This document shows positions 1,692-25,272 of a stretch of 64,000 bases of DNA, piece by piece. A model generated the notes under the pieces. It saw only the letters and a program-made list of their open reading frames with translations, searched no databases and was not told the origin of the DNA. Position 1 is the stretch's first letter, and the number at the start of each line of letters is the position of its first letter. Origin of the DNA: a virus (taxonomy: Duplodnaviria; Heunggongvirae; Uroviricota; Caudoviricetes); the IMG/VR virus record IMGVR_UViG_2703718787_000017; one strand, 5' to 3'. The position numbers and the translations under genes are program-made.

Positions 1692-1724
1692 TTCACGATA
1701 TTCCATTAATACCATTTCCTGATG

Positions 1725-1749
1725 CCCGGCCATTGTGCCGGGTTTTTTT
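1725..1749 (+). terminator. rho-independent terminator-like hairpin (CCCGGC-cattgt-GCCGGG followed by T7 run)
   Basis: GC stem plus U-run between the 421-aa gene and the giant gene; may act as attenuator. Confidence 0.5.
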
Positions 1750-1760
1750 ATGGAGTCTGT

Positions 1761-10543: not shown

Positions 10544-11470
10544 TCATTGGCTTACCTCCTTCGGCGGTTCTGGTAGCGGCATCCAGTGGGTTACTTCTTT
10601 GAGATGCAGGTCTTCGCCATCACCGTCATCCCAAGTGGGATTGCCATCATTAAACCAGTCGCCATATACGCCGACCTGAGTGTTGGGGATGCTTGGTGGG
10701 TAGTTGTTTTTAAAGTCAGCTGCTAACACATAGTATTGTCGCTCTCCCATTTCTGGCATTCGATCACTACAGCTTATCCAACCATCCGGAGTTACCGGAA
10801 CTGGCGGAACGGCTGTTTGCTCTCGAACGTCATTAGTCGCTATCGGTTCTGCTGCCAACTGACTGGCATATTTGTTAATGGTAACGATAAGCTCTTGCTC
10901 AGCCTCATCCAGACAATCACCGATACCTCGCCTGTCACCGTCAAAATCATCGAAATCGGCACGAATCTTGGCAACCTTCTGGATTGCGGACAACACCTCA
11001 CTAGGAATTACCGGATAGTTGGTTGACGTTTCCGCGATTTCCCGAAAATTATTGGTTGACGAATTCTTGTTTTCCCGAAAGTTTCCGGACTGAAGCATGG
11101 CGGCGCGGCAGGCATTCCAGCCTCTTACCTCTGCAATAGCGGCAACCGCATCAACCGCGTACATGCTAAGAGGATTAGGCATTGGTTTTTCTTCCGGTAC
11201 TACTGGTGCTGGAGGGGCGGCGTAAATGCCCTCTATCACTAAATGTTTGCGCTCAAAATCATCTGGCTCTCGATGATATACGTAACTCCAATCACCAAGG
11301 TTATCATTGCGCCTGCAACGGAAACCTATCGGCTCGGCTTCCAGCGCTGCCAGAGCAATTCGTGCCAGTTCTTCCGCTTCTTCTGCTGGCAGTACAACGT
11401 TGCTACCAGGTCCGTATGTTTCGCGCCACTGCTTGATTGTCAGTAGTCGCTCTTTGGTAATAGTGATCAT
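10544..11470 (-). CDS. lambdoid early-region protein with C-terminal DUF551-like segment (…HWMPLPEPP)
   Basis: 308-aa ORF; C-terminal motif typical of phage DUF551 proteins; start overlaps upstream gene stop (coupling). Confidence 0.7.
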   Translation of the reverse strand: MITITKERLLTIKQWRETYGPGSNVVLPAEEAEELARIALAALEAEPIGFRCRRNDNLGDWSYVYHREPDDFERKHLVIEGIYAAPPAPVVPEEKPMPNPLSMYAVDAVAAIAEVRGWNACRAAMLQSGNFRENKNSSTNNFREIAETSTNYPVIPSEVLSAIQKVAKIRADFDDFDGDRRGIGDCLDEAEQELIVTINKYASQLAAEPIATNDVREQTAVPPVPVTPDGWISCSDRMPEMGERQYYVLAADFKNNYPPSIPNTQVGVYGDWFNDGNPTWDDGDGEDLHLKEVTHWMPLPEPPKEVSQ

Positions 11471-11982
11471 GCCGCGTTTCCTTCTTTCTTATTAACAATT
11501 ACACCGTCATATATTTCATTAAGGTGCCCTCTCAACTCCATGCGCCTTAATGCAGATAACATGTAATCGCATTCAACCTGCTTATTCCCAATAAAAGGTT
11601 TATCTTCAGGGTTACCCCAACAGCAATTCCCCTTGGGCCATCCATGTACTTTCCGTACTCTTCCGTTAACAACGTGAAGTAATCCCCAGCCAGGTGGTAA
11701 ATCCTCAATTGAAATAATTCCCGGCTCACTAATAAAGAATCGCCAGTCGCCCATTCCAAGAGACGGATTTTTACGAAAACGCTTTTTTCTATCTGCCAAC
11801 AAGTCAGCACGAGAACATTTCGCCTCTATCAGGCATGATGCTGAATTTCTGAATCCCATAGCATCTGGCTGTTCTCCGGTACTGGTTACAGCTATAAAGC
11901 GGTCATGAAAACAAACCTTGAACCCGCTGCGCTTAAGGAACTTGTACGCAATCTGACAGAGTTCGCGGTGTGTTAACGCCAT
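11467..11982 (-). CDS. hypothetical phage protein (about 171 aa)
   Basis: ORF in operon with flanking minus-strand genes; start ATG 1 nt after upstream stop. Confidence 0.55.
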   Translation of the reverse strand: MALTHRELCQIAYKFLKRSGFKVCFHDRFIAVTSTGEQPDAMGFRNSASCLIEAKCSRADLLADRKKRFRKNPSLGMGDWRFFISEPGIISIEDLPPGWGLLHVVNGRVRKVHGWPKGNCCWGNPEDKPFIGNKQVECDYMLSALRRMELRGHLNEIYDGVIVNKKEGNAA

Positions 11983-11983
11983 A

Positions 11984-12934
11984 TCACTCTCCTTTGATGC
12001 GAATGCCAGCAAGCCAGTTTCTTATGCCGATATATTCAGCGTTCCGGAAACCGCTTTTTACATATATAAATGGCAAGCGAAGATTGTGACCATTGACTGC
12101 CAGGTAGTCTTTACAACCCTGTTCGGTGAAACAGCAGGTAACGAATTCATCAATATCTTTCACAGCAACGCGCCGCCATTTTTCTGGTGGCTCTCGAAAG
12201 TTTTCATGAAGTAGCTCGAGACGACGACTATGGCGTTTATTGGCTTCATTGCCATCTTCGTCAACCCAGACAATCCGGTCATGGTCATAATCAGCATCAA
12301 CAACGATTTCGCGCTTTTGATACACACAAAACATGGGATCTGACGTTATTCGATTGTCCTGTGTTCGAATATTTTCACCGATGATGCCAAACGAATCTGG
12401 TGCAGATTTTGTCTGCATCTCTTCGATACGTTCAGCCATCGCAGCACACTCTTCAAAGTTGCTTAATGCTTTTCGCTCCCATTCGGCGCATTGTTTTTCC
12501 AGTTCTGCTATGCGCTTACTTCCATCCGCGATTACTCCCTCGTAATATTCACGCTGCTCGTTGAGTTTTGATTTTGCTGTTTCAAGCTCAACGCGCAGCT
12601 TCCCTACCGTAAGCGCAATATCCTCGTTCTCCTGGTCGCGGCGTTTGATGTATTGCTGGTTTCTTTCCCGTTCATCCAGCAGTGCCAGCACGGTAGCCGG
12701 ATTGGCTGCGGCGATGAATTCAGCATTGGCCTGCTGTTCCATTTGGAAATCTTCATCGAAACCGCTTTCAGGATGTGCTCCTTCAATTCTGCAAATGGGA
12801 ATATATCCAGCAGCCTCGCGATGAATTAGTGCATCATCACCATCAAATCGGTTCTCTCCATATTCGAGCGACCACTCACCACGCGTTGCTTTTTCTGCCT
12901 TTTCACGCAGTACCTGATAGTTAATCTCGCTCAT
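11984..12934 (-). CDS. Ea22-like lambdoid early protein (coiled-coil; N-terminus MSEINYQ…ATRGEWS)
   Basis: N-terminal sequence resembles lambda Ea22-family proteins from memory; GGAG upstream of ATG at 12934. Confidence 0.65.
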   Translation of the reverse strand: MSEINYQVLREKAEKATRGEWSLEYGENRFDGDDALIHREAAGYIPICRIEGAHPESGFDEDFQMEQQANAEFIAAANPATVLALLDERERNQQYIKRRDQENEDIALTVGKLRVELETAKSKLNEQREYYEGVIADGSKRIAELEKQCAEWERKALSNFEECAAMAERIEEMQTKSAPDSFGIIGENIRTQDNRITSDPMFCVYQKREIVVDADYDHDRIVWVDEDGNEANKRHSRRLELLHENFREPPEKWRRVAVKDIDEFVTCCFTEQGCKDYLAVNGHNLRLPFIYVKSGFRNAEYIGIRNWLAGIRIKGE

Positions 12935-13205
12935 TTTTCTCTTCGCTCCGGTATACAAGAATTACAACGTCACCTCTGCTAATTACGCGAGCTGGATCTC
13001 CTGGCTCCATGCTGTCAATCCCGAAGGCTTCGGAAAACGCATTCATTGCCTTCTGGCGTTGATCCTGCTTACGGCATTTATTCCATTTTTTCAGTAACAA
13101 CAGCGATAGCCACCGCCCGGCGCAGAACATAATGTAAAAATAACCAAGAAGCGCCAGACCTGTGTTGAGGGCCGTATCGATCGTTATAGTGGTGTCTATG
13201 CTCAC
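12921..13205 (-). CDS. small hypothetical protein with one hydrophobic helix
   Basis: 94-aa ORF overlapping neighbours by a few nt in an operon-like arrangement. Confidence 0.45.
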   Translation of the reverse strand: MSIDTTITIDTALNTGLALLGYFYIMFCAGRWLSLLLLKKWNKCRKQDQRQKAMNAFSEAFGIDSMEPGDPARVISRGDVVILVYRSEEKNERD

Positions 13206-13423
13206 TTCACACCTCTCTGTTTGTTGATAAGTTCAATATCCTGCTGGCAACTGGCGCAAGTTCGGCATCCGCGAACAGCCTGGCGTCGCCGCTCATCTAT
13301 CGGATCGCCACACTCGCAACAATGAGTAGCAGATGGGGCATTACTTTCGGATTTGTATTTTTGCAGGGAGAGATTGCGCTGCAATTCTTCGATTTCAGCG
13401 GCATTGTCGATGATATCTGCCAT
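13202..13423 (-). CDS. TraR/DksA-family C4 zinc-finger protein
   Basis: 73 aa with CxxC…CxxC (CCECG…CRTCASC) pattern typical of phage TraR-like proteins. Confidence 0.7.
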   Translation of the reverse strand: MADIIDNAAEIEELQRNLSLQKYKSESNAPSATHCCECGDPIDERRRQAVRGCRTCASCQQDIELINKQRGVK

Positions 13424-13470
13424 TTTCCTTTCCTTCAGGCATGAAAAAAGGAGCCGAAGCTCCTTTGGTA

Positions 13471-14094
13471 TCAGAATTCAAATTGTCTTGCTCTTAGTTG
13501 CGCTAGCATACTTCTGGCCCTATGCACCATATAGTTGGCGGGATCAAGTTTTGCTGCTTCGCGGAGCAATGTGTCGCGAGTCCGGTTGGTTATATGACGA
13601 GTCTCGTAGGCCAGATCAAACAGTTTCCCGTAGTAATCAGAATTCAGTTCTCTCATGACGGGGTATAGCTGCTTACTGAGTTGTTGTGCTTTTTCCATCC
13701 AGAGTTGAACGTAGCAGAGCAGGATGATGTCTTCTGCTGTGAATTGCTGCTCAGTTTGTACTGGCTGAATGTTGCGAAGTTTCTTTTCGCACTCGATGAA
13801 GTATCGGCGTATCTGGCGGCCTTTTTCGTTACGTTCAACCATCGCAAGCTCTTTGGCTGTGTCGAGGGTGAGGTGGTAATCCTTGCGGCGGCGGCCTGGA
13901 GTTTTCGCCAAATTTGGCGAAAATAGAATGTAGTCTAAATTTTCTACGAATCCATACTCGTTTAGCTTGGCCCGTATCCAGTTAGAAAAATCTTTACCTA
14001 CCTCTAAAAATCCATGCAAATCACGCGCGTTCACCAGAAGCGTAGGTTCATTTGAGATTGTACCTTCAAACACAGGGATGAGTTGAGTGGTCAT
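13471..14094 (-). CDS. phage antirepressor (AntA-type N-terminal domain plus C-terminal domain)
   Basis: MTTQLIPVF…ARDLH…YHLTLDTAKE motif set; strong RBS AAAGGAGG; upstream in-frame extension rejected. Confidence 0.8.
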   Translation of the reverse strand: MTTQLIPVFEGTISNEPTLLVNARDLHGFLEVGKDFSNWIRAKLNEYGFVENLDYILFSPNLAKTPGRRRKDYHLTLDTAKELAMVERNEKGRQIRRYFIECEKKLRNIQPVQTEQQFTAEDIILLCYVQLWMEKAQQLSKQLYPVMRELNSDYYGKLFDLAYETRHITNRTRDTLLREAAKLDPANYMVHRARSMLAQLRARQFEF

Positions 14095-14343
14095 GATGAC
14101 CTCCTTTGGCTTTTTTCGAGAAATGCCACCACAAAATGTGGTGCCGGGAGGCTCGAAACGGCCCAAAAGATACCGCGGACTTATTCCCCTTGCGGGTGTT
14201 GTATTCGTCGCCCTCCCGACATTGATCGGGGATGTGACCGCACACTGTGCTATCACTGAATAACAGGCATAAAAAATCCAACACTGACGGGGTTGGTTTA
14301 ATCCGCTTTTGGGAGGTTTTCGAGGCCTCGGCGCGGAGTATAG

Positions 14344-14631
14344 TCAGTATTGGACGCAGTCGTCAACCATCGCCGTTTCTTTGGCTGTGTCGAGGGTGAG
14401 GTGGTAATCCTTGCGGTTGTGACCGCCTCTACCAGATGTTTGCTTTCCCAAATTGGAAAGCAAAATATAGTCTTGATTTTCAATGAATTCGTATTCTGAA
14501 ATGCGATTTGTAATCCATGCCGCAAACACCTTTTTCACGCCTAAAAAAGCATGCAGATCGCGGGCATTGCAGAGTAGGGCTGTTTCGTTGTCGATAGTGC
14601 CGTTGAATACGGGGATGAGTTGATTAGCCAT
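14344..14631 (-). CDS. truncated antirepressor paralog (AntA-type N-domain only, 95 aa)
   Basis: MANQLIPVF…YHLTLDTAKE; shares a near-identical 40-nt stretch with the downstream ant gene; RBS AGGAG. Confidence 0.65.
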   Translation of the reverse strand: MANQLIPVFNGTIDNETALLCNARDLHAFLGVKKVFAAWITNRISEYEFIENQDYILLSNLGKQTSGRGGHNRKDYHLTLDTAKETAMVDDCVQY

Positions 14632-14957
14632 AATTATGACTCCTGACGTTTTAGTATTGACTGCCACCTTAGTGGGGTGGCGGGCTTCAACTACCGCGTC
14701 AGACGGCGGAGCGTATTTCCCGAAAGGGTATTGTATTAGGCTCTCTCGACCCGCCATTGATATGGCGATACCTGTAAACAGGCATAAAAAAGCCGCAAAG
14801 CTATCGGGTGCGGTTGACCGCTGACGTTGTAGTGCAGTCAGTATGCGATAGCTCTGGCAGATTTGTCAAATCGTGCAGTAACATCCTTTTCTTCCTTGCC
14901 ATTTCTCAATGATGACAAAGGGTGGATTCGGATTGGTATTGGGACAAAAGTGAGACA

Positions 14958-17644: not shown

Positions 17645-18675
17645 TTATATTTTTTCGATCTCGACCAGATTAGTGTGCTGCGGGTTTCCCTTCGCCAGTG
17701 GTGAAGGGCGCAGAGTGGTTAGCGTATTCACACAGCCGCCATGGTCGATTTTATCGCCAGACATATTGGCCTCGTGCCAGGCTCCCTGGCCCATAGCGCT
17801 AACTCCAGGGAGAATACGTGGTGTTACTTTGGCTGGTAGCCGAACTTCGCCACGATGGTTAAACACCCGCACCATATCGCCGTTGGCAATCCCACGTTTC
17901 TGCGCATCTATAGGGTTGATCCACACCTCCTGACGGCAGGCAGCCTTCAGGAGATCAATATTGCCGTAGGTCGAGTGAGTACGGGATTTGTAATGGAAAC
18001 CAAACAGTTGCAGTGGGAAGGTTCTACGTTCAGGGGAGTCCCAGCCTTCAAAGGTAGAGGCATAAACTGGCAGTGGGCTTATCACTTCATCTTTTTCCAG
18101 TTCCCAGGTACGGGCAATTTCCGCCAGCTTGCTGGAATAAATTTCAATCTTACCGGAAGGTGTTTTAAGTGGATTTGCCTCGGGGTCGTCACGAAATGCT
18201 TTGTAGGCGACAAAATGACCATTGGGATCTTTACGCTTATAGATACCCATTTTTTTCAGTTCGTCGTAAGACGGTAACGCCGGATCTTTGGCAAGCATTT
18301 TGGCGTACAGATGTTGTAACCATTGTTCCTGCGTGCGACCTTCAGTGAACTTTTGATAGACGTCAGGTCCAAGACGTTTCGCGACTTCACTCAGGATCCA
18401 GTAAATCGGTTTGCGTTCGAATTTTTCGCTGGTGACAGGCTGGAGGAAAATGAGATATCCCATGTTACCGGCGTAGTCGTTAGGAATAATATCTTCCTGC
18501 TCAACGGTCATCAGGTCTGGCAGCAGAATGTCGGCATATTTTGCCGATGAGGTCATAAAGTTTTCGATGACCACAATCATTTCGCATTTCGATTCGTCCT
18601 GCAGAATTTCATGCGTTTTGTTGATGTCAGAATGCTGATTAACGAGGGTATTTCCCGCGTAGTTCCAGATGAACT
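17645..18675 (-). pseudogene. ynfE: ynfE 3' portion (C-terminal about 340 codons) separated from its 5' portion by the island
   Basis: Translation parallels YnfF C-terminus; native frame begins at …IKFIWNYAGNTLVNQ; upstream part of the ORF is island sequence. Confidence 0.85.
18661..18675 (+). repeat. left copy of 15-bp direct repeat AGTTCCAGATGAACT (att core / target duplication)
   Basis: Exact match to 25258-25272. Confidence 0.8.
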
Positions 18676-18736
18676 CCATTGTCAGACGGATGGATGGACT
18701 TGAAGTAGTTGACTCAATGCTACTTAAGGTCCTGAT

Positions 18737-20341
18737 ATGACTGACATTAACCATGATAATACTGTATGTCCATCCAGTTCTTTCTCTGGGTCTCCCTATC
18801 TGTATCAGCAAGTCTGCACCTCAAGTCCTGACACAAGGCTGACACAAATCAATATACTCAGCGTAGCTAAGCCTCAGTTAGTCCGTAGAGCCAATGGTCG
18901 ATATACTATCCGCTTCAGACTCAAGGGACAGACCATCCCGTTTCTTTCAGTATCGACCCGAAGCACAGACAGGAGAGTAGCCACAATGCGTCAGAGAGAG
19001 CTTGCAGCCACAGCTAAGACATTCCTACTAGACAAGCCTGAAGTTTCGCTACAGGAGCTTACAGAGCACCTCCGGTCTATGGCTGAGCAGTTCCTGACAG
19101 ACGCCAGTGATGACTACTGGAATGGACTTGAGGTCGCTACTCTGGTGGACGAGAAGTCCAACCTGAAGGAGCTAGCCGCTACGCAAGCCTTGAGTCTGGA
19201 CCAGCAGAAGGGCATAAGGTTAGCGCTTGAAGTCCTGACCGCAGCACAGCAGAGGGTAGACACTGGTGATGCCTCTGGTCTGATTAAGCTGATTGATGAT
19301 AATAACCATACTGATTACTCAACTATAGGCGACTATACGTCCATTCTGAAGAATGAGCAGGGGGATAGACCAGCAGTTTTCACACAGGTTACTGCTCCTT
19401 GCAGTCACAGCGAGCGTCAGCCATCTGTGGTTTTTTCAAGCCTAGTGTCCTCGCTGCTGGCTGAGAAGGTCCAGACCCTGAAGTCCTCCAGCTACAAGGA
19501 CCTGTCGTCCTCACTGAATACCGTCTCTCGGTTCTTACCTGAAGACATGGACCTGATGTCCCGCTCTGAGTGGCTGGCTGTCAGGGACTCTATGCTTGCT
19601 TCTGAGGTGAGACCATCGACAATCAACAAGCTGCTGACCAAAGCGAAGATGTGTCTCGATTATGGCCTGATGAATGGGCAACTTGAGGGCCGCAACCCTA
19701 TTGAACGGATGAAGCTGACCAAGGATATCGACTCCAAGCGCAGAGCGTTCACAGACGAGGAGCTGGATGGACTTCTTGTCCGGGTAGAGGCTGAGTATCA
19801 GTTCACACGACATACCGCTCACACGACCTCTGAGGCTCGCAGGTGGGCGACTCTGGTCTCTGTGGTCACTGGCGCTCGGTCTGCTGAGGTCTGCCACCTG
19901 ACTAAACGTGACATTGTAACCTTGGACAATGGACTGGTCTGTATCGACATCAATGAAGATGGGGGCGGGAAGTCCGTAAAGAACAAGCATTCAGTCCGAC
20001 TTGTACCGCTGACCGATGGCGCTTATGGGTTTGACCTGAAGTCCTTCCTCGAATGGGTAGACATGCAGCCTGACGAGGGTCCTCTCTTCGGGATGACTCC
20101 AAGCGCATACTCTAGCTGGTTTAACTCAAGGGTCCTCACAGAGGCTCTCCCAGACGCTGAGAACGTCTCTCTACACAGTCTGAGACATTGGCTGGCGACC
20201 CGGATGAAAGAGCGTGGAGTCAATCTGGTGGACGCTCAGGGCATCTTAGGTCACAGCAGTCAGTCCATTACGTATGACCTGTACGGGAAAGGACATGCAG
20301 TTGGTAGGCTGGCTGATGTGCTGAAGACAGCTTTACTTTAA
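18737..20341 (+). CDS. tyrosine recombinase (integrase), 534 aa with extended N-terminal region
   Basis: C-terminal catalytic pattern: …GARSAEVCHL… (Arg), HSLRHWLATR (His-x-x-Arg), ITYDLYGK (Tyr); gene sits just inside the left repeat. Confidence 0.85.
   Translation: MTDINHDNTVCPSSSFSGSPYLYQQVCTSSPDTRLTQINILSVAKPQLVRRANGRYTIRFRLKGQTIPFLSVSTRSTDRRVATMRQRELAATAKTFLLDKPEVSLQELTEHLRSMAEQFLTDASDDYWNGLEVATLVDEKSNLKELAATQALSLDQQKGIRLALEVLTAAQQRVDTGDASGLIKLIDDNNHTDYSTIGDYTSILKNEQGDRPAVFTQVTAPCSHSERQPSVVFSSLVSSLLAEKVQTLKSSSYKDLSSSLNTVSRFLPEDMDLMSRSEWLAVRDSMLASEVRPSTINKLLTKAKMCLDYGLMNGQLEGRNPIERMKLTKDIDSKRRAFTDEELDGLLVRVEAEYQFTRHTAHTTSEARRWATLVSVVTGARSAEVCHLTKRDIVTLDNGLVCIDINEDGGGKSVKNKHSVRLVPLTDGAYGFDLKSFLEWVDMQPDEGPLFGMTPSAYSSWFNSRVLTEALPDAENVSLHSLRHWLATRMKERGVNLVDAQGILGHSSQSITYDLYGKGHAVGRLADVLKTALL
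18829..18850. repeat. two direct copies of TGACACAA (putative integrase arm-type sites, left end)
   Basis: CTGACACAAGGCTGACACAAAT; same motif appears three times near the right end. Confidence 0.45.
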
Positions 20342-20554
20342 GTAGGAAGACCCAAGGTGTAGACCATATACGGCTTGATGGTTGAACCTTGGGTCGCTGA
20401 AGTCTGACTGAAGTTAGGGAGGGTGATAATAATCATAATCCCTCCTGACTATAGGCCCACTGGTTCGCCTTCGGCTGTCCGACTCTAAGTCTGTATGTGG
20501 TCTTATTTAAACTGGTTCCCTAACTCCAGTACTCCAAATTCCTATGGTCTCCTC

Positions 20555-20760
20555 TTGACATTCCTGTTTAACTGTGAGTCGCCTCTGGTCTCTCTTTATA
20601 TATACTTCCTTAATTCCTGAGGCGTCTTTAGTCCTTGACATTCGGTCCAACCTGTGAGTCACATCCGGTCCTCCCTCTATATATATACTTCCTTAATTCC
20701 TAGGGTCGCCTTAATCCTTGACATCCAGTCCAACCTGTGAGTCACATCCTGTCGCTAGCA
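20555..20760 (+). repeat. about 80-bp tandem repeat, 3 units, each with TTGACA, inverted repeat TGTGA-G-TCACA and a TATATATA block; candidate host-RNAP promoter/operator array
   Basis: TTGACA at 20555, 20635, 20718; units align over most of their length; third unit diverges at its 3' end. Confidence 0.6.
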
Positions 20761-20799
20761 AGCTAGCTGTCGCGCTACTGTATGCATCACCAGTGGTGG

Positions 20800-20822
20800 A
20801 CTTGATTATCACTATAGGGGAA
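20800..20822 (+). promoter_or_regulatory. T7-group single-subunit RNAP promoter-like 23-mer ACTTGATTATCACTATAGGGGAA (predicted +1 at G 20817)
   Basis: Positions -8 to +3 identical to T7 consensus TCACTATAGGG; upstream -17 to -9 differs from T7/T3/SP6; lies 30 nt upstream of an RBS and ATG. Confidence 0.5.
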
Positions 20823-20851
20823 CCAACTAATTCAACTACAGGAGATACTCT

Positions 20852-21220
20852 ATGGCACGACCAATCGCAACTCACGACAACACGTTCACCAAAGCCTACT
20901 TGCAGCAGCACTGCGGGGACCTGCTGTCATTCGATGGTCAGGGCGACCTGAGTGGTTGGCTGGATGATGTCCTTACTGGTGCTGGTCGCCTGAACGAATC
21001 AATGGCAAGCAATACCAAGCCTGTCAGCCCATACTTGATTCTGACCCAACTACTAACGCACGACACATTAACTGTAAGCGCTGTGCAGGAGTCCCTGAGC
21101 CGTAAGCGTGTCGCCTTGGGTGAACCTATGGTTTCAACTCGCTACGCTCGCTACGTCTATGCTACCGTCGTCAGCGCCAGTAAATCCGTCCAGTACCACG
21201 CCAGTAAAGCTGGTTCATGA
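20852..21220 (+). CDS. hypothetical protein (122 aa), first gene downstream of promoter-like site 1
   Basis: ORF with AGGAG 8 nt upstream of ATG; no family recognised. Confidence 0.6.
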   Translation: MARPIATHDNTFTKAYLQQHCGDLLSFDGQGDLSGWLDDVLTGAGRLNESMASNTKPVSPYLILTQLLTHDTLTVSAVQESLSRKRVALGEPMVSTRYARYVYATVVSASKSVQYHASKAGS

Positions 21221-21228
21221 TTACGGAC

Positions 21229-21251
21229 CCTAAACTATCACTATAGGGAAG
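21229..21251 (+). promoter_or_regulatory. second T7-group RNAP promoter-like 23-mer CCTAAACTATCACTATAGGGAAG (predicted +1 at G 21246)
   Basis: Shares ATCACTATAGGG with site 1; same -8 to +3 core as T7 consensus. Confidence 0.5.
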
Positions 21252-21781
21252 AGCAGCCTCCACCTCTGGTCTTGATGCGTCAAGTTATGCGGAAGCTCTC
21301 CCGACATTAAGTATCTCTCCTAAGCAATCAAGGTCTGTGACCGCCTCTGTCATTCCTGCATCCCGTGAGTGTTCTTCTGTCGTCTCGGTTAGTAGCTCGT
21401 CTACTCACTACACTGACTTAAGTCTATCAGCACCTACCAGATGCACGCCTGACATGCGGTCCCGCCTTATATGCACATGGAGAACATGGTCCAAATGTAG
21501 CCTACGAAATTTTCGTAAGCTTCGGGCAGGACCAAGGCTGGTAGAAGTCTAACCAACCCAGAAAACGGGTTTGTTAAAAAGATTAACATGGGTCACTTAG
21601 GGCAGGACGCTTCTCTACCGTCCCGCCTTTATTGACACCTGCAGGAAATCATGGTCATCCCCGACCAATCAAATCAACCCTATTCACTTTCGTAAGCACT
21701 TTCGGCGGCTCCATTTGGTAGCGCTGAATAGGTGTGGAGACCCGCAGGGGAACGAGAGTGCTTTCTAAAGGAGCTACCTTA
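21252..21781 (+). other. 530-nt apparently untranslated leader with internal repeats (TCCCGCCTT x2; TTCGTAAGC-N-CTTCGG x2); possible structured RNA, processing sites or replication origin
   Basis: No convincing ORF with RBS (the 71-aa ORF at 21337 is Ser-rich with no SD); repeats read directly. Confidence 0.3.
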
Positions 21782-22873
21782 ATGAACATCCATAAATTCA
21801 TCGACATGAACGAAGTCATCGCCAGCAATCATCCTCTTGCCAAAGGTACCACTGACAGCGTAACGCAGGTCATCGTGTCACACCTGAAGTCCGGCGATGC
21901 AGGTATCGACATCCTGAATGCGCCTAAGGCCGCTAGCGATATGTCTGCCAGCTTCCTGAATGACTTGAAGAGCAAGTATCGTGTCGTGGCTGGTCATAAC
22001 TCTGAGGGTCACATTGATGCATGGCTGGCGCATAAGCACAGCGGACGCCGGGTGACGACTAAAAGCAATGACAAGGGTTATCGCGCTGTGAGCGTGAATG
22101 GTCGCCCGTATCAGGAGCACCGCCTTATCGTGGCCCTGTTCTATGATGTGGCACTGCCGGGCTGGGTGGTAGTTAATCACGCTGTGTCCTGCACCATTTG
22201 GAACGAAGGCAAATCAAACCATCCGTTCAACCTCCGATTAACGACATCATATGGTAACCAGCTTGATAAGAAGGTCCGCGAAGGTGTTCGCAATAAGTTC
22301 ACCGGGTACTACTTCGATGAATATCGTGGCAAGTGGCGCGTCCAGATGAAGCGGCCTTTCGCTGGTGGTCCGCAGCATTTCGGCATGTACGACACCGAAG
22401 CTGAGGCCTACATTGTCCGCTGCGCTGTCCTCCACCAGCATCTTGGTGCGTTCTGGGCGATGACCACCGGGGAATCCGGTCTCGTGCCCCGAGTCAAACC
22501 TGACGGTTCTCTGGTACTGCCTACTGAGCATGGTTACGATTGGGCGGAAAACCTGCCTTATCCTGAGGACTGGGACGACGAGTTCAAGGCCCGGCTGGAG
22601 GAGATGAAGCTGTACTGGGACGCATATCATGTGTTCGGTATTGAAGACGAAGAATACTTCGGCGACTGTGTGTCAGGGCTTGATGTGAACGCAGTAGTGT
22701 TCAACGGCGTGCCTGCCATTATCGACATCACAGAAGGACTTCCGGTGTCATATGCTCACTGGTTCGGACCAAGCCAACGCTTCGAGTTCACCAACTACTA
22801 CCAGCGCTGCATTCACGCCTGTGACCTTGATGCGGAACCTGAAGAGGAAGACTGGATGGAGAACGATTTCTGA
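21782..22873 (+). CDS. HNH endonuclease with AP2-type DNA-binding domain (homing-endonuclease-like)
   Basis: YQEHRLIVALFYD…VVNH motif (HNH) followed by RLTTSYGN…YYFDEYRGKWRVQM…FGMYDTEAEA (AP2-like); RBS AAAGGAG. Confidence 0.75.
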   Translation: MNIHKFIDMNEVIASNHPLAKGTTDSVTQVIVSHLKSGDAGIDILNAPKAASDMSASFLNDLKSKYRVVAGHNSEGHIDAWLAHKHSGRRVTTKSNDKGYRAVSVNGRPYQEHRLIVALFYDVALPGWVVVNHAVSCTIWNEGKSNHPFNLRLTTSYGNQLDKKVREGVRNKFTGYYFDEYRGKWRVQMKRPFAGGPQHFGMYDTEAEAYIVRCAVLHQHLGAFWAMTTGESGLVPRVKPDGSLVLPTEHGYDWAENLPYPEDWDDEFKARLEEMKLYWDAYHVFGIEDEEYFGDCVSGLDVNAVVFNGVPAIIDITEGLPVSYAHWFGPSQRFEFTNYYQRCIHACDLDAEPEEEDWMENDF

Positions 22874-23085
22874 TGACAATTAAACAGCATATCGACCCTC
22901 GCACCGATATCGGCAGGGCAACACTTCGTTATCGTGGTCTGCCTACTCGTCATCTTCTGTCAATGCTGGGGATGGGTACTGATTCATCCGAGCGCCCTTA
23001 CTACAATCGAGACGAGCTGATAGCAATGCTGGTGGACCGTGATTTGAATAATCAGTTGCGTCGAGCCTTTGCTAAGCAGTCCTGA
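22873..23085 (+). CDS. hypothetical protein (70 aa)
   Basis: ATG overlaps stop of upstream gene (TGATG coupling). Confidence 0.5.
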   Translation: MTIKQHIDPRTDIGRATLRYRGLPTRHLLSMLGMGTDSSERPYYNRDELIAMLVDRDLNNQLRRAFAKQS

Positions 23086-23208
23086 CCATACCACCTTAAT
23101 TTAAACACCTTTTGAGAATGACCGATGCGGGGAGACCGTAGGCATAACTGTGTCTGCGATACCGATAGTTCTCACCTTCTCAAGAGGAGTAATTACTATG
23201 TCTAGCAA

Positions 23209-23707
23209 AGCTAGTGCGTTATTCAACAACAACGACTGGAAACTGTCTGTCACCGACATCAATCTCTATGAAAATACTGTGAATCTGGATGGGCAGTCCT
23301 ACCCGTTGTCTCTGGCTATCAAGACCCTCATTCCGGGCTACCTGTCAGGCTTACCGTCCACCAGCAGCGCGGCGATGGAGCTGTTAGAGGCTCTGGCTGA
23401 AGCTGGTGTAGCTATTGGCAACTTCTTCAGTAATGACCTGATGACCGCCTATGGTCGCCGCCAGCAGAACAAGCGAGCTGAGGCTGAGCGTATCGCTAAA
23501 GAGCAGCGCATTCAGGCCGAGCGCATGCGTGAAGAGAACATGACTGATGCAGAGTGGCAGAAAGAGCTACAGCGCCGCGAACAGGTCAAAGCTGAACGCC
23601 GGACCTATGGTGAGAACCTCCGCAGTGCTACCCATTCCGCTGGTCGCTCCCGTGCCGCTATTGTCGCTGACATTGAGTCAGGCGGTAACTGGATGGACAG
23701 CCTCTAA
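23209..23707 (+). CDS. hypothetical protein (166 aa) with charged coiled-coil C-terminal half
   Basis: RBS AGAGGAG 9 nt upstream of ATG; no family recognised; scaffold-like composition is speculation. Confidence 0.6.
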
Positions 23708-23781
23708 GACAGACACACAAGTGGTCCTGACCTGATGTCGGGACCCACAGTATCTAAAACTAATTTAGGAGATTGATTATT

Positions 23782-24771
23782 ATGACCATGATTAAAGATA
23801 GCTATCAGTTCGGCATTGAGCCAGTACGTATCACCGACACCGACAACATTCAGGTAAACGAAGGTCTTCCGACTAACGCCGACCCTCAGGTCTATGCCTT
23901 CCAGTTAGCTAAGCTGGTGAAGACCATGCTCAATTCTGTACTTAAAGACGCTCAGGATAACATTCCGTTCCCTGTAGAAGTCCTGCCAGCTCGCAACAGC
24001 TTACCGACGCCAATCATTGCTCACACTCTGGCTGACCGCTCTGTGGTCGTTCCTGTCCGTGGTGGTAAACGACCTGAAGTCGTGACCGCTCCGTCTGGTA
24101 CTGAAATCACCGTTGAGCCGATTGAGCAAGCTATCCTCGTGTCCCACCAAACCAAGCTATGGGACGCTAAGTCATCCACCGGATTCACTCAGGGCACACT
24201 TCAGCAGGACGCTATGAACATCTGTGAGAATGTGGTCCGTACCATCAACGCTCGCATGGTCGACGTTCTGGAGTCCTCCAAACTGTTGAAGACCGTAGAG
24301 CTTCCTGTCCTGACTGGTAGCCTGACCGCTAAGGCAGACGATATCATGGACGCTCTGTATGACAACACCGAGTCCTCTTTCGGCTCTGAAGTGTCTGATT
24401 ATGGCATCATCGCCCATGAGTCCCAACTGAAAGCGCTGTCCCGTCTGGCTGCTAAACAGGGCTTCTCTGGTGAAGACGCTATCGTGGATATGCTGGGAAC
24501 AGACATCGCCTACTACAACGGTGAAGACAAGGGTGTGTTCATGCTGGCTAAACGCTTCACGGCCCTGAGCTTCGGTTGCTTCCGTCATGATGGCGAGAAC
24601 ATTACCGTGGTCTTATCCCGGGATGGTGACTCTCAGTCTAACTCTCTGGAAATCCTCGGCAAGGTCTTCGTGGTTGCTGAAGCTGCTACGACAATCAAGA
24701 TGGGTACTGGTAGTGCTACTGCTGTCCTGCCTGTAGTCAAACGCCTGAAGTTCACCAAGACCGAAGCGTAA
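23782..24771 (+). CDS. hypothetical protein (329 aa); structural (capsid-like) role possible but unverified
   Basis: RBS TTAGGAG upstream; largest non-enzymatic ORF of the island. Confidence 0.65.
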   Translation: MTMIKDSYQFGIEPVRITDTDNIQVNEGLPTNADPQVYAFQLAKLVKTMLNSVLKDAQDNIPFPVEVLPARNSLPTPIIAHTLADRSVVVPVRGGKRPEVVTAPSGTEITVEPIEQAILVSHQTKLWDAKSSTGFTQGTLQQDAMNICENVVRTINARMVDVLESSKLLKTVELPVLTGSLTAKADDIMDALYDNTESSFGSEVSDYGIIAHESQLKALSRLAAKQGFSGEDAIVDMLGTDIAYYNGEDKGVFMLAKRFTALSFGCFRHDGENITVVLSRDGDSQSNSLEILGKVFVVAEAATTIKMGTGSATAVLPVVKRLKFTKTEA

Positions 24772-24934
24772 GACCATGAGCAGAGGTAAGTCTGGACTGA
24801 ATATCAGCAGGACTTCAGGTGGTGGATTATCAATGTAATTAATAACTATGGTCTGGACTTCGGTCTGGACCTTATTAGCGAAGTTATCCACAGCTTAATA
24901 ACATATACAACTTTATTCACATTAAGGAGGACGC

Positions 24935-25018
24935 ATGGACCTGCATAAAGTCTATCTTATCGTCTTCCTGTTGAAGCTGGTGCTGGTGGTCGTGCTTACA
25001 GTCAGGGTACGGCTGTGA
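24935..25018 (+). CDS. small hydrophobic peptide (27 aa, MDLHKVYLIVFLLKLVLVVVLTVRVRL)
   Basis: Strong RBS TAAGGAGG 5 nt upstream; single predicted TM helix; too short to be in the ORF track. Confidence 0.3.
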   Translation: MDLHKVYLIVFLLKLVLVVVLTVRVRL

Positions 25019-25128
25019 GCTGGCGAGCAGCTAACGATGAGTTTTGGACCAAAAGTTAGAGACCTGATTCAATACAATTAAGACACCAATGTTCCCCGGT
25101 GCCACCCTGAGTCCAGACCGAGGCCACC

Positions 25129-25140
25129 GGGGGGGGGGGG
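25129..25140. repeat. homopolymeric G12 tract
   Basis: Twelve consecutive G read directly, near the island right end. Confidence 0.9.
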
Positions 25141-25170
25141 CTGACCAGCCGTCTAGACATCCCGTCTAAT

Positions 25171-25204
25171 GACACAAGGCTGACACAAAGCCTGACACAA
25201 AGTC
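25171..25204. repeat. three direct copies of TGACACAA(G/A) (putative integrase arm-type sites, right end)
   Basis: ATGACACAAGGCTGACACAAAGCCTGACACAAAG; mirrors the two copies at 18829-18850. Confidence 0.5.
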
Positions 25205-25257
25205 CTTGACTCAATGCAGGACCTCAGGCCTACTAAGGGTCCGCTTCAAGTCCTTGA

Positions 25258-25272
25258 AGTTCCAGATGAACT
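25258..25272 (+). repeat. right copy of 15-bp direct repeat AGTTCCAGATGAACT
   Basis: Exact match to 18661-18675. Confidence 0.8.

What the first reader, a model, noticed from the sequence alone, without database searches (positions are those of the whole stretch)
21782..22873. HNH-AP2 homing-endonuclease-like gene inside the island
HNH motif (…HRLIVALFYD…VVNH) followed by an AP2-type DNA-binding domain is the architecture of free-standing homing endonucleases common in lytic phage genomes. On an island that depends on a helper phage it could cleave helper or competitor DNA.
Basis: partly seen in the sequence, partly recalled or inferred. Interest (0 to 1): 0.5.

Follow-up and report, generated by a model that had tools for sequence, protein, structure and literature searches.

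The report
Domesticated HNH-AP2 nuclease on T7-type satellite
The gene is real and does encode an HNH nuclease plus AP2 DNA-binding module, but it is an island-specific, enlarged version sitting behind a K1F/T7-type phage promoter and ending in a tail that copies the polymerase-docking tail of the helper phage's helicase, so it probably manipulates helper-phage DNA replication rather than acting as an ordinary selfish homing endonuclease.

Summary
ORF 21782-22873 (+) is a genuine, selectively maintained gene of 363 aa (dN/dS 0.2-0.3). Pfam HNH_3 and AP2 do not hit it directly. Other evidence places residues ~86-225 in the I-HmuI-type HNH + AP2 family: PHROG 99 (2e-16), about 360 phmmer relatives that are themselves HNH_3+AP2, a family profile against PDB sequences (I-HmuI 6.6e-14, WRI1 7.7e-12), and an AlphaFold model with Foldseek matches.

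The catalytic His and all three Asn residues are present. The metal-binding Asp is Asn (N132), a change fixed in this island lineage.

The protein is twice the usual size. It occupies a slot that sister islands fill with KilA-N or Rha proteins. It lies 530 nt downstream of a phage-type promoter identical to those of K1F-like phages. Its end (…EEEDWMENDF) resembles those phages' primase-helicase tail (…EEDSGSWEDNDF), which in T7 docks on the DNA polymerase.

The ~6.6-kb island in ynfE also copies K1F-type concatemer-junction sequences.

Best reading (about 0.4): a phage-RNAP-induced protein that binds or nicks DNA and captures helper polymerase. A plain anti-helper nuclease, a dead regulator and a selfish homing endonuclease remain possible. 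Nothing here was tested biochemically.

The parts
21782..22873 (+). HNH-AP2 gene, 363 aa plus stop
   Evidence: ORF. SD AAGGAG at 21768-21773. RefSeq homologues are called 'AP2 domain-containing protein'. dN/dS is 0.2-0.3 between alleles.
21782..22036 (+). N-terminal extension (residues 1-85), lineage-specific, no known domain
   Evidence: No Pfam, PHROG or NCBIfam hit. Absent from generic ~165-aa relatives. 33% identical to P0006. The model shows helices followed by a beta-hairpin.
22037..22276 (+). HNH (beta-beta-alpha-metal) nuclease module, residues 86-165. H113 is at 22118-22120, N132 at 22175-22177, H133 at 22178-22180, N146 at 22217-22219, N150 at 22229-22231 and N159 at 22256-22258.
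   Evidence: PHROG 99. Family profile against I-HmuI, 6.6e-14. Foldseek match to 1u3e. Residue conservation. This is the most conserved block against P0006, 70% identity in the core.
22277..22456 (+). AP2-type DNA-binding domain, residues 166-225
   Evidence: phmmer to WRI1. Family profile against AP2/ERF structures. Model has three strands plus a helix. AtERF1 superposes at rmsd 1.5 A. G175, W185, G201 and A209 are conserved.
22457..22816 (+). C-terminal extension, residues 226-345. The GExGxxPRV...SLVxP block (about residues 230-247) is shared with P0006 and P0012. The rest is an orphan.
   Evidence: Alignment A2. No family hit. Low model confidence. dN/dS 0.13-0.35.
22817..22870 (+). Acidic C-terminal tail, residues 346-363 (…CDLDAEPEEEDWMENDF-COOH), resembling the gp4 primase-helicase tail
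   Evidence: T7 gp4 ends …ESTDWSNDTDF. Kayfunavirus-type gp4 ends …EEDSGSWEDQDF / SWEDNDF / SWENQDF. K1F encodes …SWENNDF one G out of frame. WMENDF is invariant in the island alleles. The chance estimate is 3e-7 per protein. pLDDT is below 50, so the tail is probably flexible.
21229..21251 (+). K1F/T7-type phage RNA polymerase promoter, CCTAAACTATCACTATA-GGGAAG, the nearest promoter-like site upstream of the gene
   Evidence: Sequence. The 16-mer occurs in 70 IMG/VR stretches, nearly all from ~39-40-kb contigs and several times per contig. 120 blastn-short hits fall in those loci. It is conserved in L003, L086 and L042. No sigma-70 or terminator signal above chance lies between it and the gene.
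21600..21781 (+). Leader that belongs to the same swappable cassette as the gene
   Evidence: The window and L042 (KilA-N variant) align well up to about 21600 and diverge from there to the start codon.
20800..20822 (+). Second K1F/T7-type promoter (TTGATTATCACTATA-GGGGAA) in front of ORF 20852-21220
22873..23085 (+). 70-aa backbone ORF whose ATG overlaps the HNH-AP2 stop codon (TGATG)
   Evidence: A 51%-identical ORF follows the KilA-N gene in L042.
18661..25272 (.). The island: ~6.6 kb inserted in ynfE, bounded by the 15-bp direct repeat AGTTCCAGATGAACT
   Evidence: Repeat at 18661 and 25258. Split ynfE annotation in L001, L003 and L086. Tyrosine integrase 18737/18962-20341.

Best explanation
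The gene encodes a domesticated descendant of a phage HNH-AP2 homing endonuclease that has become a working part of a small integrative element parasitic on K1F-like (Kayfunavirus, T7-type) phages.

Proposed sequence of events:
1. The gene has no recognisable host promoter, so it stays silent until such a phage supplies its RNA polymerase. That polymerase fires the phage-type promoter at 21229-21251.
2. The AP2 domain and the HNH module bind a specific DNA site. The HNH module has its catalytic His and three Asn residues intact, with the metal-binding Asp changed to Asn. Like I-HmuI, it most likely nicks the site.
3. The flexible acidic tail …EEEDWMENDF-COOH imitates the C-terminal tail of the helper primase-helicase gp4. 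In T7 that tail docks on basic patches of the DNA polymerase. The imitation would capture helper polymerase at the bound site.
4. The outcome is polymerase diverted to the island, with replication primed from the nick, and/or polymerase withheld from the helper replisome.

Shown here: the gene, domain homology, residue pattern, purifying selection, promoter identity, island context and tail resemblance.

Inferred: timing of expression, nicking, polymerase binding and outcome.
For: - Domain identity is established.
- The HNH core is the best-conserved block between island clades at 70%, against 18-42% for the other regions outside the tail. H133, N146, N150 and N159 are kept, and N132 is kept as well.
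- dN/dS is 0.2-0.3 in every region.
- The same enlarged lineage occurs in two further integrase islands. In each it sits directly after a long non-coding stretch carrying phage-type promoters: T3-like in L010 and another type in L004.
- The promoter word is that of ~40-kb Kayfunavirus genomes.
- In the Kayfunavirus-type contigs that carry this promoter word, gp4 ends …EEDSGSWE[DNET][NQ]DF (K1F itself). The island protein ends …EPEEEDWMENDF: W at -6, [NQ]DF-COOH and an acidic run. WMENDF is invariant across alleles, and the chance expectation is about 3e-7 per protein.
- The acidic gp4 tail and its terminal Phe bind T7 DNA polymerase (PMC12230644 and PMC5997990, read).
- No island ORF gave a replication-protein match (polymerase, helicase or primase) in Pfam, NCBIfam or PHROGs.
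- The island copies helper cis elements, so it must use helper machinery.
Against: - N132 replaces the metal-binding Asp, which is D in 133 of 141 relatives. Catalysis may therefore be weak or lost.
- The tail is confined to the E. coli clade. P0006 ends …EEVCHAAA and P0012 has no tail, so the tail cannot be the ancestral function of the lineage.
- From general knowledge, a T7-type origin needs only a phage promoter, so an initiator protein may be unnecessary.
- Sister islands fill the slot with KilA-N or Rha proteins that lack any such tail.
- No binding or cleavage site was identified, and no sequence shared between the leader and the helper genomes was found.
- The tail resemblance was noticed after the fact.
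- Only 28 of 310 E. coli islands of this family carry the gene.
Confidence: 0.4

Rival explanations
1. Anti-helper or anti-competitor nuclease. The protein is induced by the phage polymerase. It cuts or nicks helper or rival-element DNA at AP2-specified sites, as PLE NixI does to ICP1. The tail has no role, or only an auxiliary one.
For: - The HNH catalytic His and Asn residues are kept and are the best-conserved part of the protein.
- The closest phage relatives are homing endonucleases living in T7-supergroup genomes.
- Sister islands carry another anti-T7 gene, RAZR/PD-T7-4, overlapping the integrase, so the family does invest in anti-T7 functions.
- The slot is variable, like a defence hotspot.
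- A satellite nickase acting against its helper has precedent (PMC9410903, listed and not read here).
Against: - There is no PADLOC hit.
- N132 replaces the metal ligand.
- No target sequence is known.
- This reading does not explain the gp4-like tail or the conserved extensions.
Confidence: 0.25
2. A catalytically dead DNA-binding regulator. The HNH-AP2 scaffold is kept only for sequence-specific binding. It would control transcription, excision or packaging of the island, equivalent in function to the KilA-N and Rha proteins found in the same slot.
For: - The D132N change is fixed in the island clade.
- The alternative occupants of the slot are DNA-binding proteins of regulator or antirepressor type.
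- The island has an integrase but no recognised excisionase.
Against: - H133, N146, N150 and N159 remain invariant even at 47% overall identity, and the HNH core is the most conserved block. That is unexpected for a dead site.
- Asn can still ligate a metal ion (general knowledge).
Confidence: 0.2
3. An ordinary selfish free-standing homing endonuclease that has invaded the island and contributes nothing to it.
For: - HNH_3+AP2 is the standard architecture of homing endonucleases.
- Distribution is patchy: 28 of 310 related E. coli islands.
- In L004 the gene is an extra gene upstream of the KilA-N gene.
Against: - The protein is twice the usual length, with extensions conserved across three island lineages that use different phage promoters.
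- Selection is purifying in all regions.
- The gene replaces another gene rather than filling an empty site.
- It has a helper-like tail.
Confidence: 0.1

Closest known systems
I-HmuI (phage SPO1 HNH homing endonuclease, PDB 1U3E)
   Same: It is the best structural and profile match to the HNH module. It shares the HR…(D/N)H…N…NL…N motif layout. I-HmuI is a nicking enzyme (general knowledge).
   Different: I-HmuI has the canonical D74-H75 pair, whereas this protein has N132-H133 and a 7-residue insertion after the His. I-HmuI uses different C-terminal DNA-binding modules, not AP2. It is intron-encoded, has 174 aa and has no acidic tail.
Free-standing HNH_3 + AP2 endonucleases of phages (for example the 153-aa HNH of Escherichia phage PSK2 and Klebsiella KP34-like phages)
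   Same: Same two-domain core, 33-35% identity over residues 99-224. Pfam HNH_3 and AP2 are found in 26 and 21 of 30 aligned sequences.
   Different: Those proteins are ~150-180 aa, sit between DNA-metabolism genes of lytic phages and keep the Asp. This protein has 363 aa, carries extra N- and C-terminal regions, and lives on an integrative island behind a phage promoter.
Acidic C-terminal tails of T7-type gp4 primase-helicase and gp2.5 SSB
   Same: An acidic run, an aromatic W a few residues from the end and a terminal D-F-COOH. In T7 these tails dock on the DNA polymerase.
   Different: Here the tail is attached to a nuclease and DNA-binding protein with no helicase or SSB homology. No DNA-level similarity to the phage gene was detected. 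Binding is untested.
PLE NixI (nicking nuclease of a Vibrio cholerae satellite directed at helper phage ICP1)
   Same: It is a satellite-encoded site-specific nuclease deployed during helper infection, a functional analogy drawn from the title and abstract of PMC9410903.
   Different: No homology was tested or expected. The helper family is different. NixI has no known polymerase-docking tail.
Plant AP2/ERF DNA-binding domains (AtERF1 1GCC, WRI1 7WQ5)
   Same: Same three-strand-plus-helix fold and the same conserved G/W/G/A positions.
   Different: Those are eukaryotic transcription factors with no nuclease module.

Membership tests
HNH / His-Me finger nuclease, Pfam HNH_3 (PF13392) subgroup | Scores above the Pfam HNH_3 gathering threshold | tested here: not met
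   No Pfam hit at E<=10 for either start codon. P0006 and P0012 also give no HNH_3 hit.
HNH / His-Me finger nuclease, Pfam HNH_3 (PF13392) subgroup | Significant sequence homology to bona fide members | tested here: met
   PHROG 99 at 2e-16. 361 phmmer hits, of which 26 of 30 sampled are HNH_3. Family profile against I-HmuI at 6.6e-14.
HNH / His-Me finger nuclease, Pfam HNH_3 (PF13392) subgroup | Beta-beta-alpha-metal fold | tested here: met
   The AF2 model has strands 130-133 and 151-154 and helix 156-161, with pLDDT ~60-90. Its top PDB match is I-HmuI with probability 1.0. It has 109 BFVD matches with E<=1e-3, and the listed top matches are mostly phage HNH endonucleases.
HNH / His-Me finger nuclease, Pfam HNH_3 (PF13392) subgroup | General-base His and the conserved Asn residues | tested here: met
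   H133, N146, N150 and N159 align with columns that are 95-99% conserved in 141 sequences.
HNH / His-Me finger nuclease, Pfam HNH_3 (PF13392) subgroup | Metal-binding Asp immediately before the catalytic His (the D-H pair) | tested here: not met
   N132 stands where 133 of 141 relatives have D. Among the 141 sequences N occurs in the six island-clade sequences and one other.
HNH / His-Me finger nuclease, Pfam HNH_3 (PF13392) subgroup | Metal-dependent DNA cleavage or nicking | not testable with these tools
   Needs biochemistry.
AP2 DNA-binding domain (PF00847) | Scores above the Pfam AP2 gathering threshold | tested here: not met
   No hit.
AP2 DNA-binding domain (PF00847) | Homology and fold: a three-stranded sheet packed on a helix, with conserved G, W, G and A positions | tested here: met
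   WRI1 by phmmer at E 0.22. Family profile against WRI1 at 7.7e-12, and against TEM1, ERF096 and ERF1. 21 of 30 relatives are Pfam AP2. Model strands 176-179, 184-190 and 197-203 and helix 206-221. 1gcc superposes at TMt 0.66 and rmsd 1.5 A. G175, W185, G201 and A209 are conserved.
Free-standing homing endonuclease gene | Presence/absence polymorphism at an otherwise collinear site, with an empty allele as the target | tested here: not met
   Backbone-identical islands carry a KilA-N gene (L042) in the same place, and the related tRNA-Gly islands (L014, L015) carry a Rha gene there. The swap includes ~180 nt of leader. In L004 the gene is an extra gene upstream of the KilA-N gene, so the evidence is mixed.
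Free-standing homing endonuclease gene | Compact protein made only of nuclease and DNA-binding modules | tested here: not met
   363 aa against ~150-250 aa for relatives. The additional 85-aa N-terminal and 138-aa C-terminal regions are under purifying selection.
Free-standing homing endonuclease gene | Cleaves the endonuclease-less allele and is copied into it | not testable with these tools
   Needs cleavage mapping and co-infection crosses.
T7-type polymerase-docking acidic tail (gp4 / gp2.5 type) | Acidic, flexible C-terminus ending in an aromatic residue (Phe), with an upstream Trp in gp4 | tested here: met
   The island tail is …EPEEEDWMENDF. The gp4 tails from the T7 reference record, the T3 reference record and the promoter-bearing IMG/VR contigs are. 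The K1F reference tail is. pLDDT is below 50 over 359-363 and most of 287-357.
T7-type polymerase-docking acidic tail (gp4 / gp2.5 type) | Binds the basic patches of phage DNA polymerase | not testable with these tools
   No complex-prediction or binding assay was available.
Phage satellite (the element that carries the gene) | Integrase, att repeats and helper-type cis signals for expression and packaging | tested here: met
   Tyrosine integrase. 15-bp att repeat. K1F-type promoters. A 28-nt hairpin and a 28-nt junction-adjacent element are shared with Kayfunavirus, plus a terminal-repeat-end-like motif.
Phage satellite (the element that carries the gene) | Helper-dependent excision, replication and packaging | not testable with these tools
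   No episomal or virion-derived contigs were found. The short contigs examined were chromosomal fragments, and IMG/VR holds only integrated copies.

The most novel reading that the evidence does not exclude
The protein would be the first described satellite factor that hijacks a T7-type DNA polymerase by molecular mimicry of the helper helicase's docking tail. The mimic tail is fused to a site-specific HNH-AP2 nicking module, so helper polymerase would start synthesis on satellite DNA and/or be stripped from the helper replisome. The protein would belong to a so far undescribed family of ~6-7-kb satellites of virulent K1F/T7/T3-like phages. These satellites copy their helpers' promoters and concatemer junctions and are present in about 6% of complete E. 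coli genomes.
Probability: 0.3. Interest if true: 0.85.

Novelty: new variant of a known kind. Interest (0 to 1): 0.62.

Why it matters
T7-like phages are strictly virulent model phages and candidates for phage therapy. No satellite of them turned up in nine full-text searches of the held library.

If this element is such a satellite, the HNH-AP2 protein is one of its few possible effectors. It would show how a homing endonuclease can be recruited into a parasite-of-a-parasite life cycle.

The tail resemblance gives a directly testable idea: a short peptide motif may be enough to steal the best-studied replicative polymerase. It also offers a route to explaining resistance of some E. coli strains to K1F-like therapeutic phages.

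Even on the modest reading, the N-H variant of the D-H active-site pair, conserved across clades, is a natural experiment on His-Me finger catalysis.

Tried and rejected
- Pfam and NCBIfam scans of the protein gave nothing, so domain assignment had to go through relatives and structure.
- Word-indexed protein searches found only close E. coli copies and P0012.
- Scans of genome contigs and viral contigs with the clade alignment found nothing.
- PADLOC gave no hit for the protein.
- I asked whether the Rha, KilA-N and 133-aa neighbours share the C-terminal domain or tail. They do not.
- I asked whether P0006 and P0012 have the gp4-like tail, or whether P0006 matches the T3 gp4 tail. They do not.
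- I tested whether the downstream 325-aa and DUF6971-like proteins are a T7-type capsid and scaffold. hhalign against gp10A and gp9 was negative, tblastn against phages was empty and the AlphaFold model failed at pLDDT 36. Their identity stays open and I do not call them a capsid.
- I looked for episomal island contigs. The 6.4-7.3-kb contigs are chromosomal fragments.
- I looked for leader or gene sequence shared with helper genomes as a hint to a target site. There was none.
- Sigma-70 promoter and terminator scans were at chance level.
- The short in-frame 'deletion' variants P0003-P0005 are single TPA or short-read records. They were not used as evidence.
- Literature searches for satellites of T7-like phages, DUF6971 and K1F satellites found no description.
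Full report

The + strand carries an ORF from GTG 21734 or ATG 21782 to the stop at 22871-22873. ATG 21782 is preceded by AAGGAG at 21768-21773. It is also the start used for near-identical RefSeq genes named 'AP2 domain-containing protein'.

Pfam HNH_3 and AP2 give no hit even at E<=10, and NCBIfam gives nothing. Four other lines of evidence agree, however.

- PHROG 99 'HNH endonuclease' matches residues 85-223 at 2e-16.
- An exhaustive phmmer search of 1.84 billion representatives gives 361 hits. Almost all are ~160-180-aa proteins aligned to residues ~85-225. Of 30 aligned sequences, 26 are Pfam HNH_3 and 21 are Pfam AP2.
- A profile of that alignment hits I-HmuI at 6.6e-14 and AP2/ERF structures at 7.7e-12 to 6e-4.
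- An AlphaFold2 model is confident over residues 50-220. Its best PDB match is I-HmuI. AtERF1 superposes at 1.5 A. It has 109 BFVD matches with E<=1e-3, and the listed top matches are mostly phage HNH or homing endonucleases.

**2. Catalytic residues**

In a 141-sequence alignment, H113, H133, N146, N150 and N159 fall in columns that are 95-99% conserved. The residue before the catalytic His is D in 133 of 141 sequences. It is N in this gene, in its E. coli alleles, in the 47%-identical P0006 and in one unrelated sequence.

By alignment with I-HmuI, this residue is the Asp of the D-H pair. From general knowledge of I-HmuI, T4 endonuclease VII and the Cas9 HNH domain, that Asp ligates the metal ion together with the last Asn. 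The island clade also has a 7-residue insertion after the His.

The HNH core is nevertheless the most conserved block between the E. coli clade and P0006. It is 70% identical, against 18-42% for the other regions outside the tail. Between E. coli alleles dN/dS is 0.15-0.45 in the HNH region and 0.2-0.3 overall. The site is therefore maintained, but in an unusual N-H form. Whether it still cuts cannot be decided here.

**3. It is not an ordinary free-standing homing endonuclease**

The nearest phage-encoded relatives (33-35% identity over residues 99-224) are ~150-aa HNH genes. They lie among DNA-metabolism genes of KP34-like and PSK2 podophages of the T7 supergroup. That is a plausible origin.

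This protein is 363 aa. Residues 1-85 and 226-363 have no detectable family but are under purifying selection. The same enlarged lineage appears in two other small integrase islands. It includes a GExGxxPRV…SLVxP block after AP2.

- P0006, 359 aa (loci L010-L013).
- P0012, 269 aa, which keeps the canonical D-H pair (loci L004-L009).

In both, the gene follows a 1-1.3-kb non-coding stretch containing phage-RNA-polymerase-type promoters and AT-rich repeats. L010 has three T3-like sites, such as AATTAACCCTCACTAGCGGGAGGA. The annotated T3 phi2.5 promoter is TAATTACCCTCACTAAAGGGAAC. L004 has two copies of AATTAACACCCACAATTGGGAAGG.

Within E. coli the gene is in 28 of 5,426 complete genomes. The downstream gene pair of the island is in 310. 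Islands with the same backbone carry a different protein in the same slot.

- L042 carries a 252-aa KilA-N protein. Its orf122 is 100% identical, and its downstream pair is 94-95% identical.
- L014, L015 and L064 carry a 243-aa Rha-family protein.

The exchanged cassette starts about 180 nt upstream of the start codon. This is gene replacement, not insertion into an empty site.

**4. The island and its helper**

The element spans ~6.6 kb and is bounded by the 15-bp repeat AGTTCCAGATGAACT at 18661 and 25258. It splits ynfE and starts with a tyrosine integrase.

It holds two phage-type promoters, at 20800-22 and 21229-51. Their core, ACTATCACTATAGGGA, occurs in 70 IMG/VR stretches. Nearly all come from ~39-40-kb contigs, with several copies per contig. 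These contigs are Kayfunavirus, that is, K1F-like.

Three more pieces of the island match those phages.

- A 28-nt hairpin at 20418-45 is identical to one lying ~110 nt downstream of the promoter that follows the terminase gene.
- A 28-nt element at 25035-62 matches 27 of 28 nt. In the phage it ends 5 nt before TCTCACAG, the T7-type genome end.
- A motif at 18793-18809 (TCCCTATCTGTATCAGC) resembles phage sequence ~185 nt inside the terminal region.

Across the att junction these pieces lie in the same order as in the phage. No sigma-70 promoter or terminator signal exceeds chance.

Mobilisation itself is not shown, because no episomal contigs were found.

Sister islands encode RAZR/PD-T7-4 overlapping the integrase. 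RAZR is an experimentally shown anti-T7 defence that is activated by T3 and T7 portal proteins.

**5. The tail**

The protein ends …CDLDAEPEEEDWMENDF. T7 gp4 ends …SHSESTDWSNDTDF and T7 gp2.5 ends …EEADEDGDF. T3 gp4 ends …GWTEQDGQSDF.

In the phages that carry the island's promoter word, gp4 ends …GEEDSGSWEDQDF, …SWEDNDF, …SWENQDF or …SWEEQDF. The K1F reference encodes …SWENNDF one G out of frame.

The island tail shares the acidic run, the W at position -6 and [NQ]DF-COOH. WMENDF is invariant in all alleles while upstream residues vary. A rough composition-based estimate gives 3e-7 per protein for such an ending. That figure should be discounted for after-the-fact noticing. The tail is low-confidence in the model and presumably flexible.

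In T7, the acidic gp4 tail and its terminal Phe bind two basic patches of the DNA polymerase and serve in loading and exchange (PMC12230644, PMC5997990). P0006 and P0012 lack this tail, so it is a specialisation of the E. coli clade.

**6. Mechanism**

The proposal has four steps.

- The phage polymerase transcribes the gene from 21229-51. This is inferred from promoter identity and the absence of host signals.
- AP2 and HNH bind a specific site and probably nick it. This is inferred from homology to I-HmuI-type enzymes and from conservation of the site.
- The tail binds helper DNA polymerase. This is inferred from the resemblance.
- Polymerase is directed to island DNA and/or withheld from the helper.

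I give this reading about 0.4. The rivals are:

- a catalytically dead regulator equivalent to the KilA-N and Rha occupants of the slot, at about 0.2;
- a selfish passenger endonuclease, at about 0.1.

The main weaknesses are N132, the clade-restricted tail, the lack of any identified target, and the fact that a T7-type origin may need no initiator.

**7. Comparison with known systems and novelty**

The core belongs by homology and fold to the HNH_3/I-HmuI and AP2 families, although it fails both Pfam thresholds and lacks the canonical Asp. It fails two defining features of a free-standing homing endonuclease: an empty-site polymorphism and a compact architecture. The closest functional analogue is PLE NixI, and the closest analogues of the tail are the gp4 and gp2.5 tails.

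I found no paper describing satellites of T7-like phages, this island family as a satellite, or this protein. Vassallo et al. noted only that PD-T7-4 'often overlaps an integrase gene'.

I rate the gene as a new variant of a known kind. Its context is potentially a new satellite family.

Noticed in passing
window 18661-25272: The whole ~6.6-kb element looks like an undescribed satellite of K1F-like (Kayfunavirus) phages. It is inserted in ynfE with a 15-bp att repeat, AGTTCCAGATGAACT. Further end-proximal repeats are TTGACTCAATGC (18709 and 25206) and TGACACAAGGCTGACACAAA (18829 and 25170).
   Followed up: partly
window 25035-25062, 25129-25140, 25170-25217 and 18779-18848: A copy of the helper's junction-adjacent sequence, CGATGAGTTTTGGACCAAAAGTTAGAGA, is present. 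In the phage it ends 5 nt before the TCTCACAG genome end. It is followed by a G12 run, TGACACAAAG repeats and, across the att site, a TATCTGTATCAGC motif that resembles the inner end of the phage terminal region. Together they suggest a mimic of the concatemer junction or pac site that is reconstituted on circularisation.
   Followed up: partly
window 20418-20445: A 28-nt hairpin, GGAGGGTGATAATAATCATAATCCCTCC, is identical to a sequence in 12 Kayfunavirus-like loci. There it lies ~110 nt downstream of the promoter that follows the terminase gene. Its function is unknown.
   Followed up: partly
window 20554-20753: Three tandem ~80-nt repeats each begin with CTTGACAT. The arrangement recalls the three tandem early host-polymerase promoters at the left end of T7. 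The simple sigma-70 scan does not call them, because no good -10 hexamer is present.
   Followed up: no
window 23198-23707 and 23794-24771: A DUF6971-like 169-aa protein and a 325-aa protein form a conserved pair. The pair is present in 310 of 5,426 complete E. coli genomes, and also in Shigella, Citrobacter and Rouxiella. No similarity to T7 scaffold or capsid was detected, no phage hit was found, and AlphaFold failed (pLDDT 36). A capsid role is only a guess.
   Followed up: partly
L015 4387-5046, L014 1664-2323, L010 3622-4251, L085 3343-4002: Sister islands at tRNA-Gly next to the ETT2 cluster, and the P0006 island, encode a DUF4145 protein overlapping the integrase. In L015 this protein scored PD-T7-4 at E 1e-102. 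PD-T7-4 is RAZR, a published anti-T7 abortive-infection RNase. The window's island lacks it.
   Followed up: partly
L042 1178-1936; L015 5970-6698; L085 2051-2536: The slot held by the HNH-AP2 gene is variable. Other islands carry a KilA-N protein, a Rha-family protein or another 161-aa protein in the same position, on otherwise near-identical backbones.
   Followed up: partly
window 21467-21617: A ~150-nt segment of the leader contains TCTAACCAACCCAGAAAACGGGTTTGTTAAAAAGATTAACATGGGTC. It is flanked by GTCCCGCCTT repeats. It is absent from alleles L003 and L086 and occurs twice in L042, so it behaves like a small repeat-bounded indel.
   Followed up: no
L087 4501-5592 and L088 (E. coli GPEC1031, CH468): IS100 or ISEc12 is inserted between the phage-type promoter and the HNH-AP2 gene. 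The L087 allele differs from L003 by 17 non-synonymous and 0 synonymous changes. That suggests either decay after uncoupling from the promoter or sequencing error.
   Followed up: no
L094 4078-4200 (phage K1F reference NC_007456, gene 4): The annotated primase-helicase reads through the usual …SWENNDF stop because of one extra G, giving a 27-residue non-acidic extension. This is either a sequencing error or a real variant lacking the polymerase-docking tail.
   Followed up: partly
window 24936-25017: A small ORF with a good SD (AAGGAGG) encodes a very hydrophobic 27-aa peptide, MDLHKVYLIVFLLKLVLVVVLTVRVRL. It lies just before the junction-like sequences.
   Followed up: no
window 1722-10142 and 10544-14757: A 2,806-aa ORF corresponds to an LPD5-domain protein in the matching E. 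coli record. It is followed on the opposite strand by prophage-type genes (DUF551, Ea22-like, TraR/DksA, Ant). This is a separate prophage remnant next to ynfF and is unrelated to the finding.
   Followed up: no
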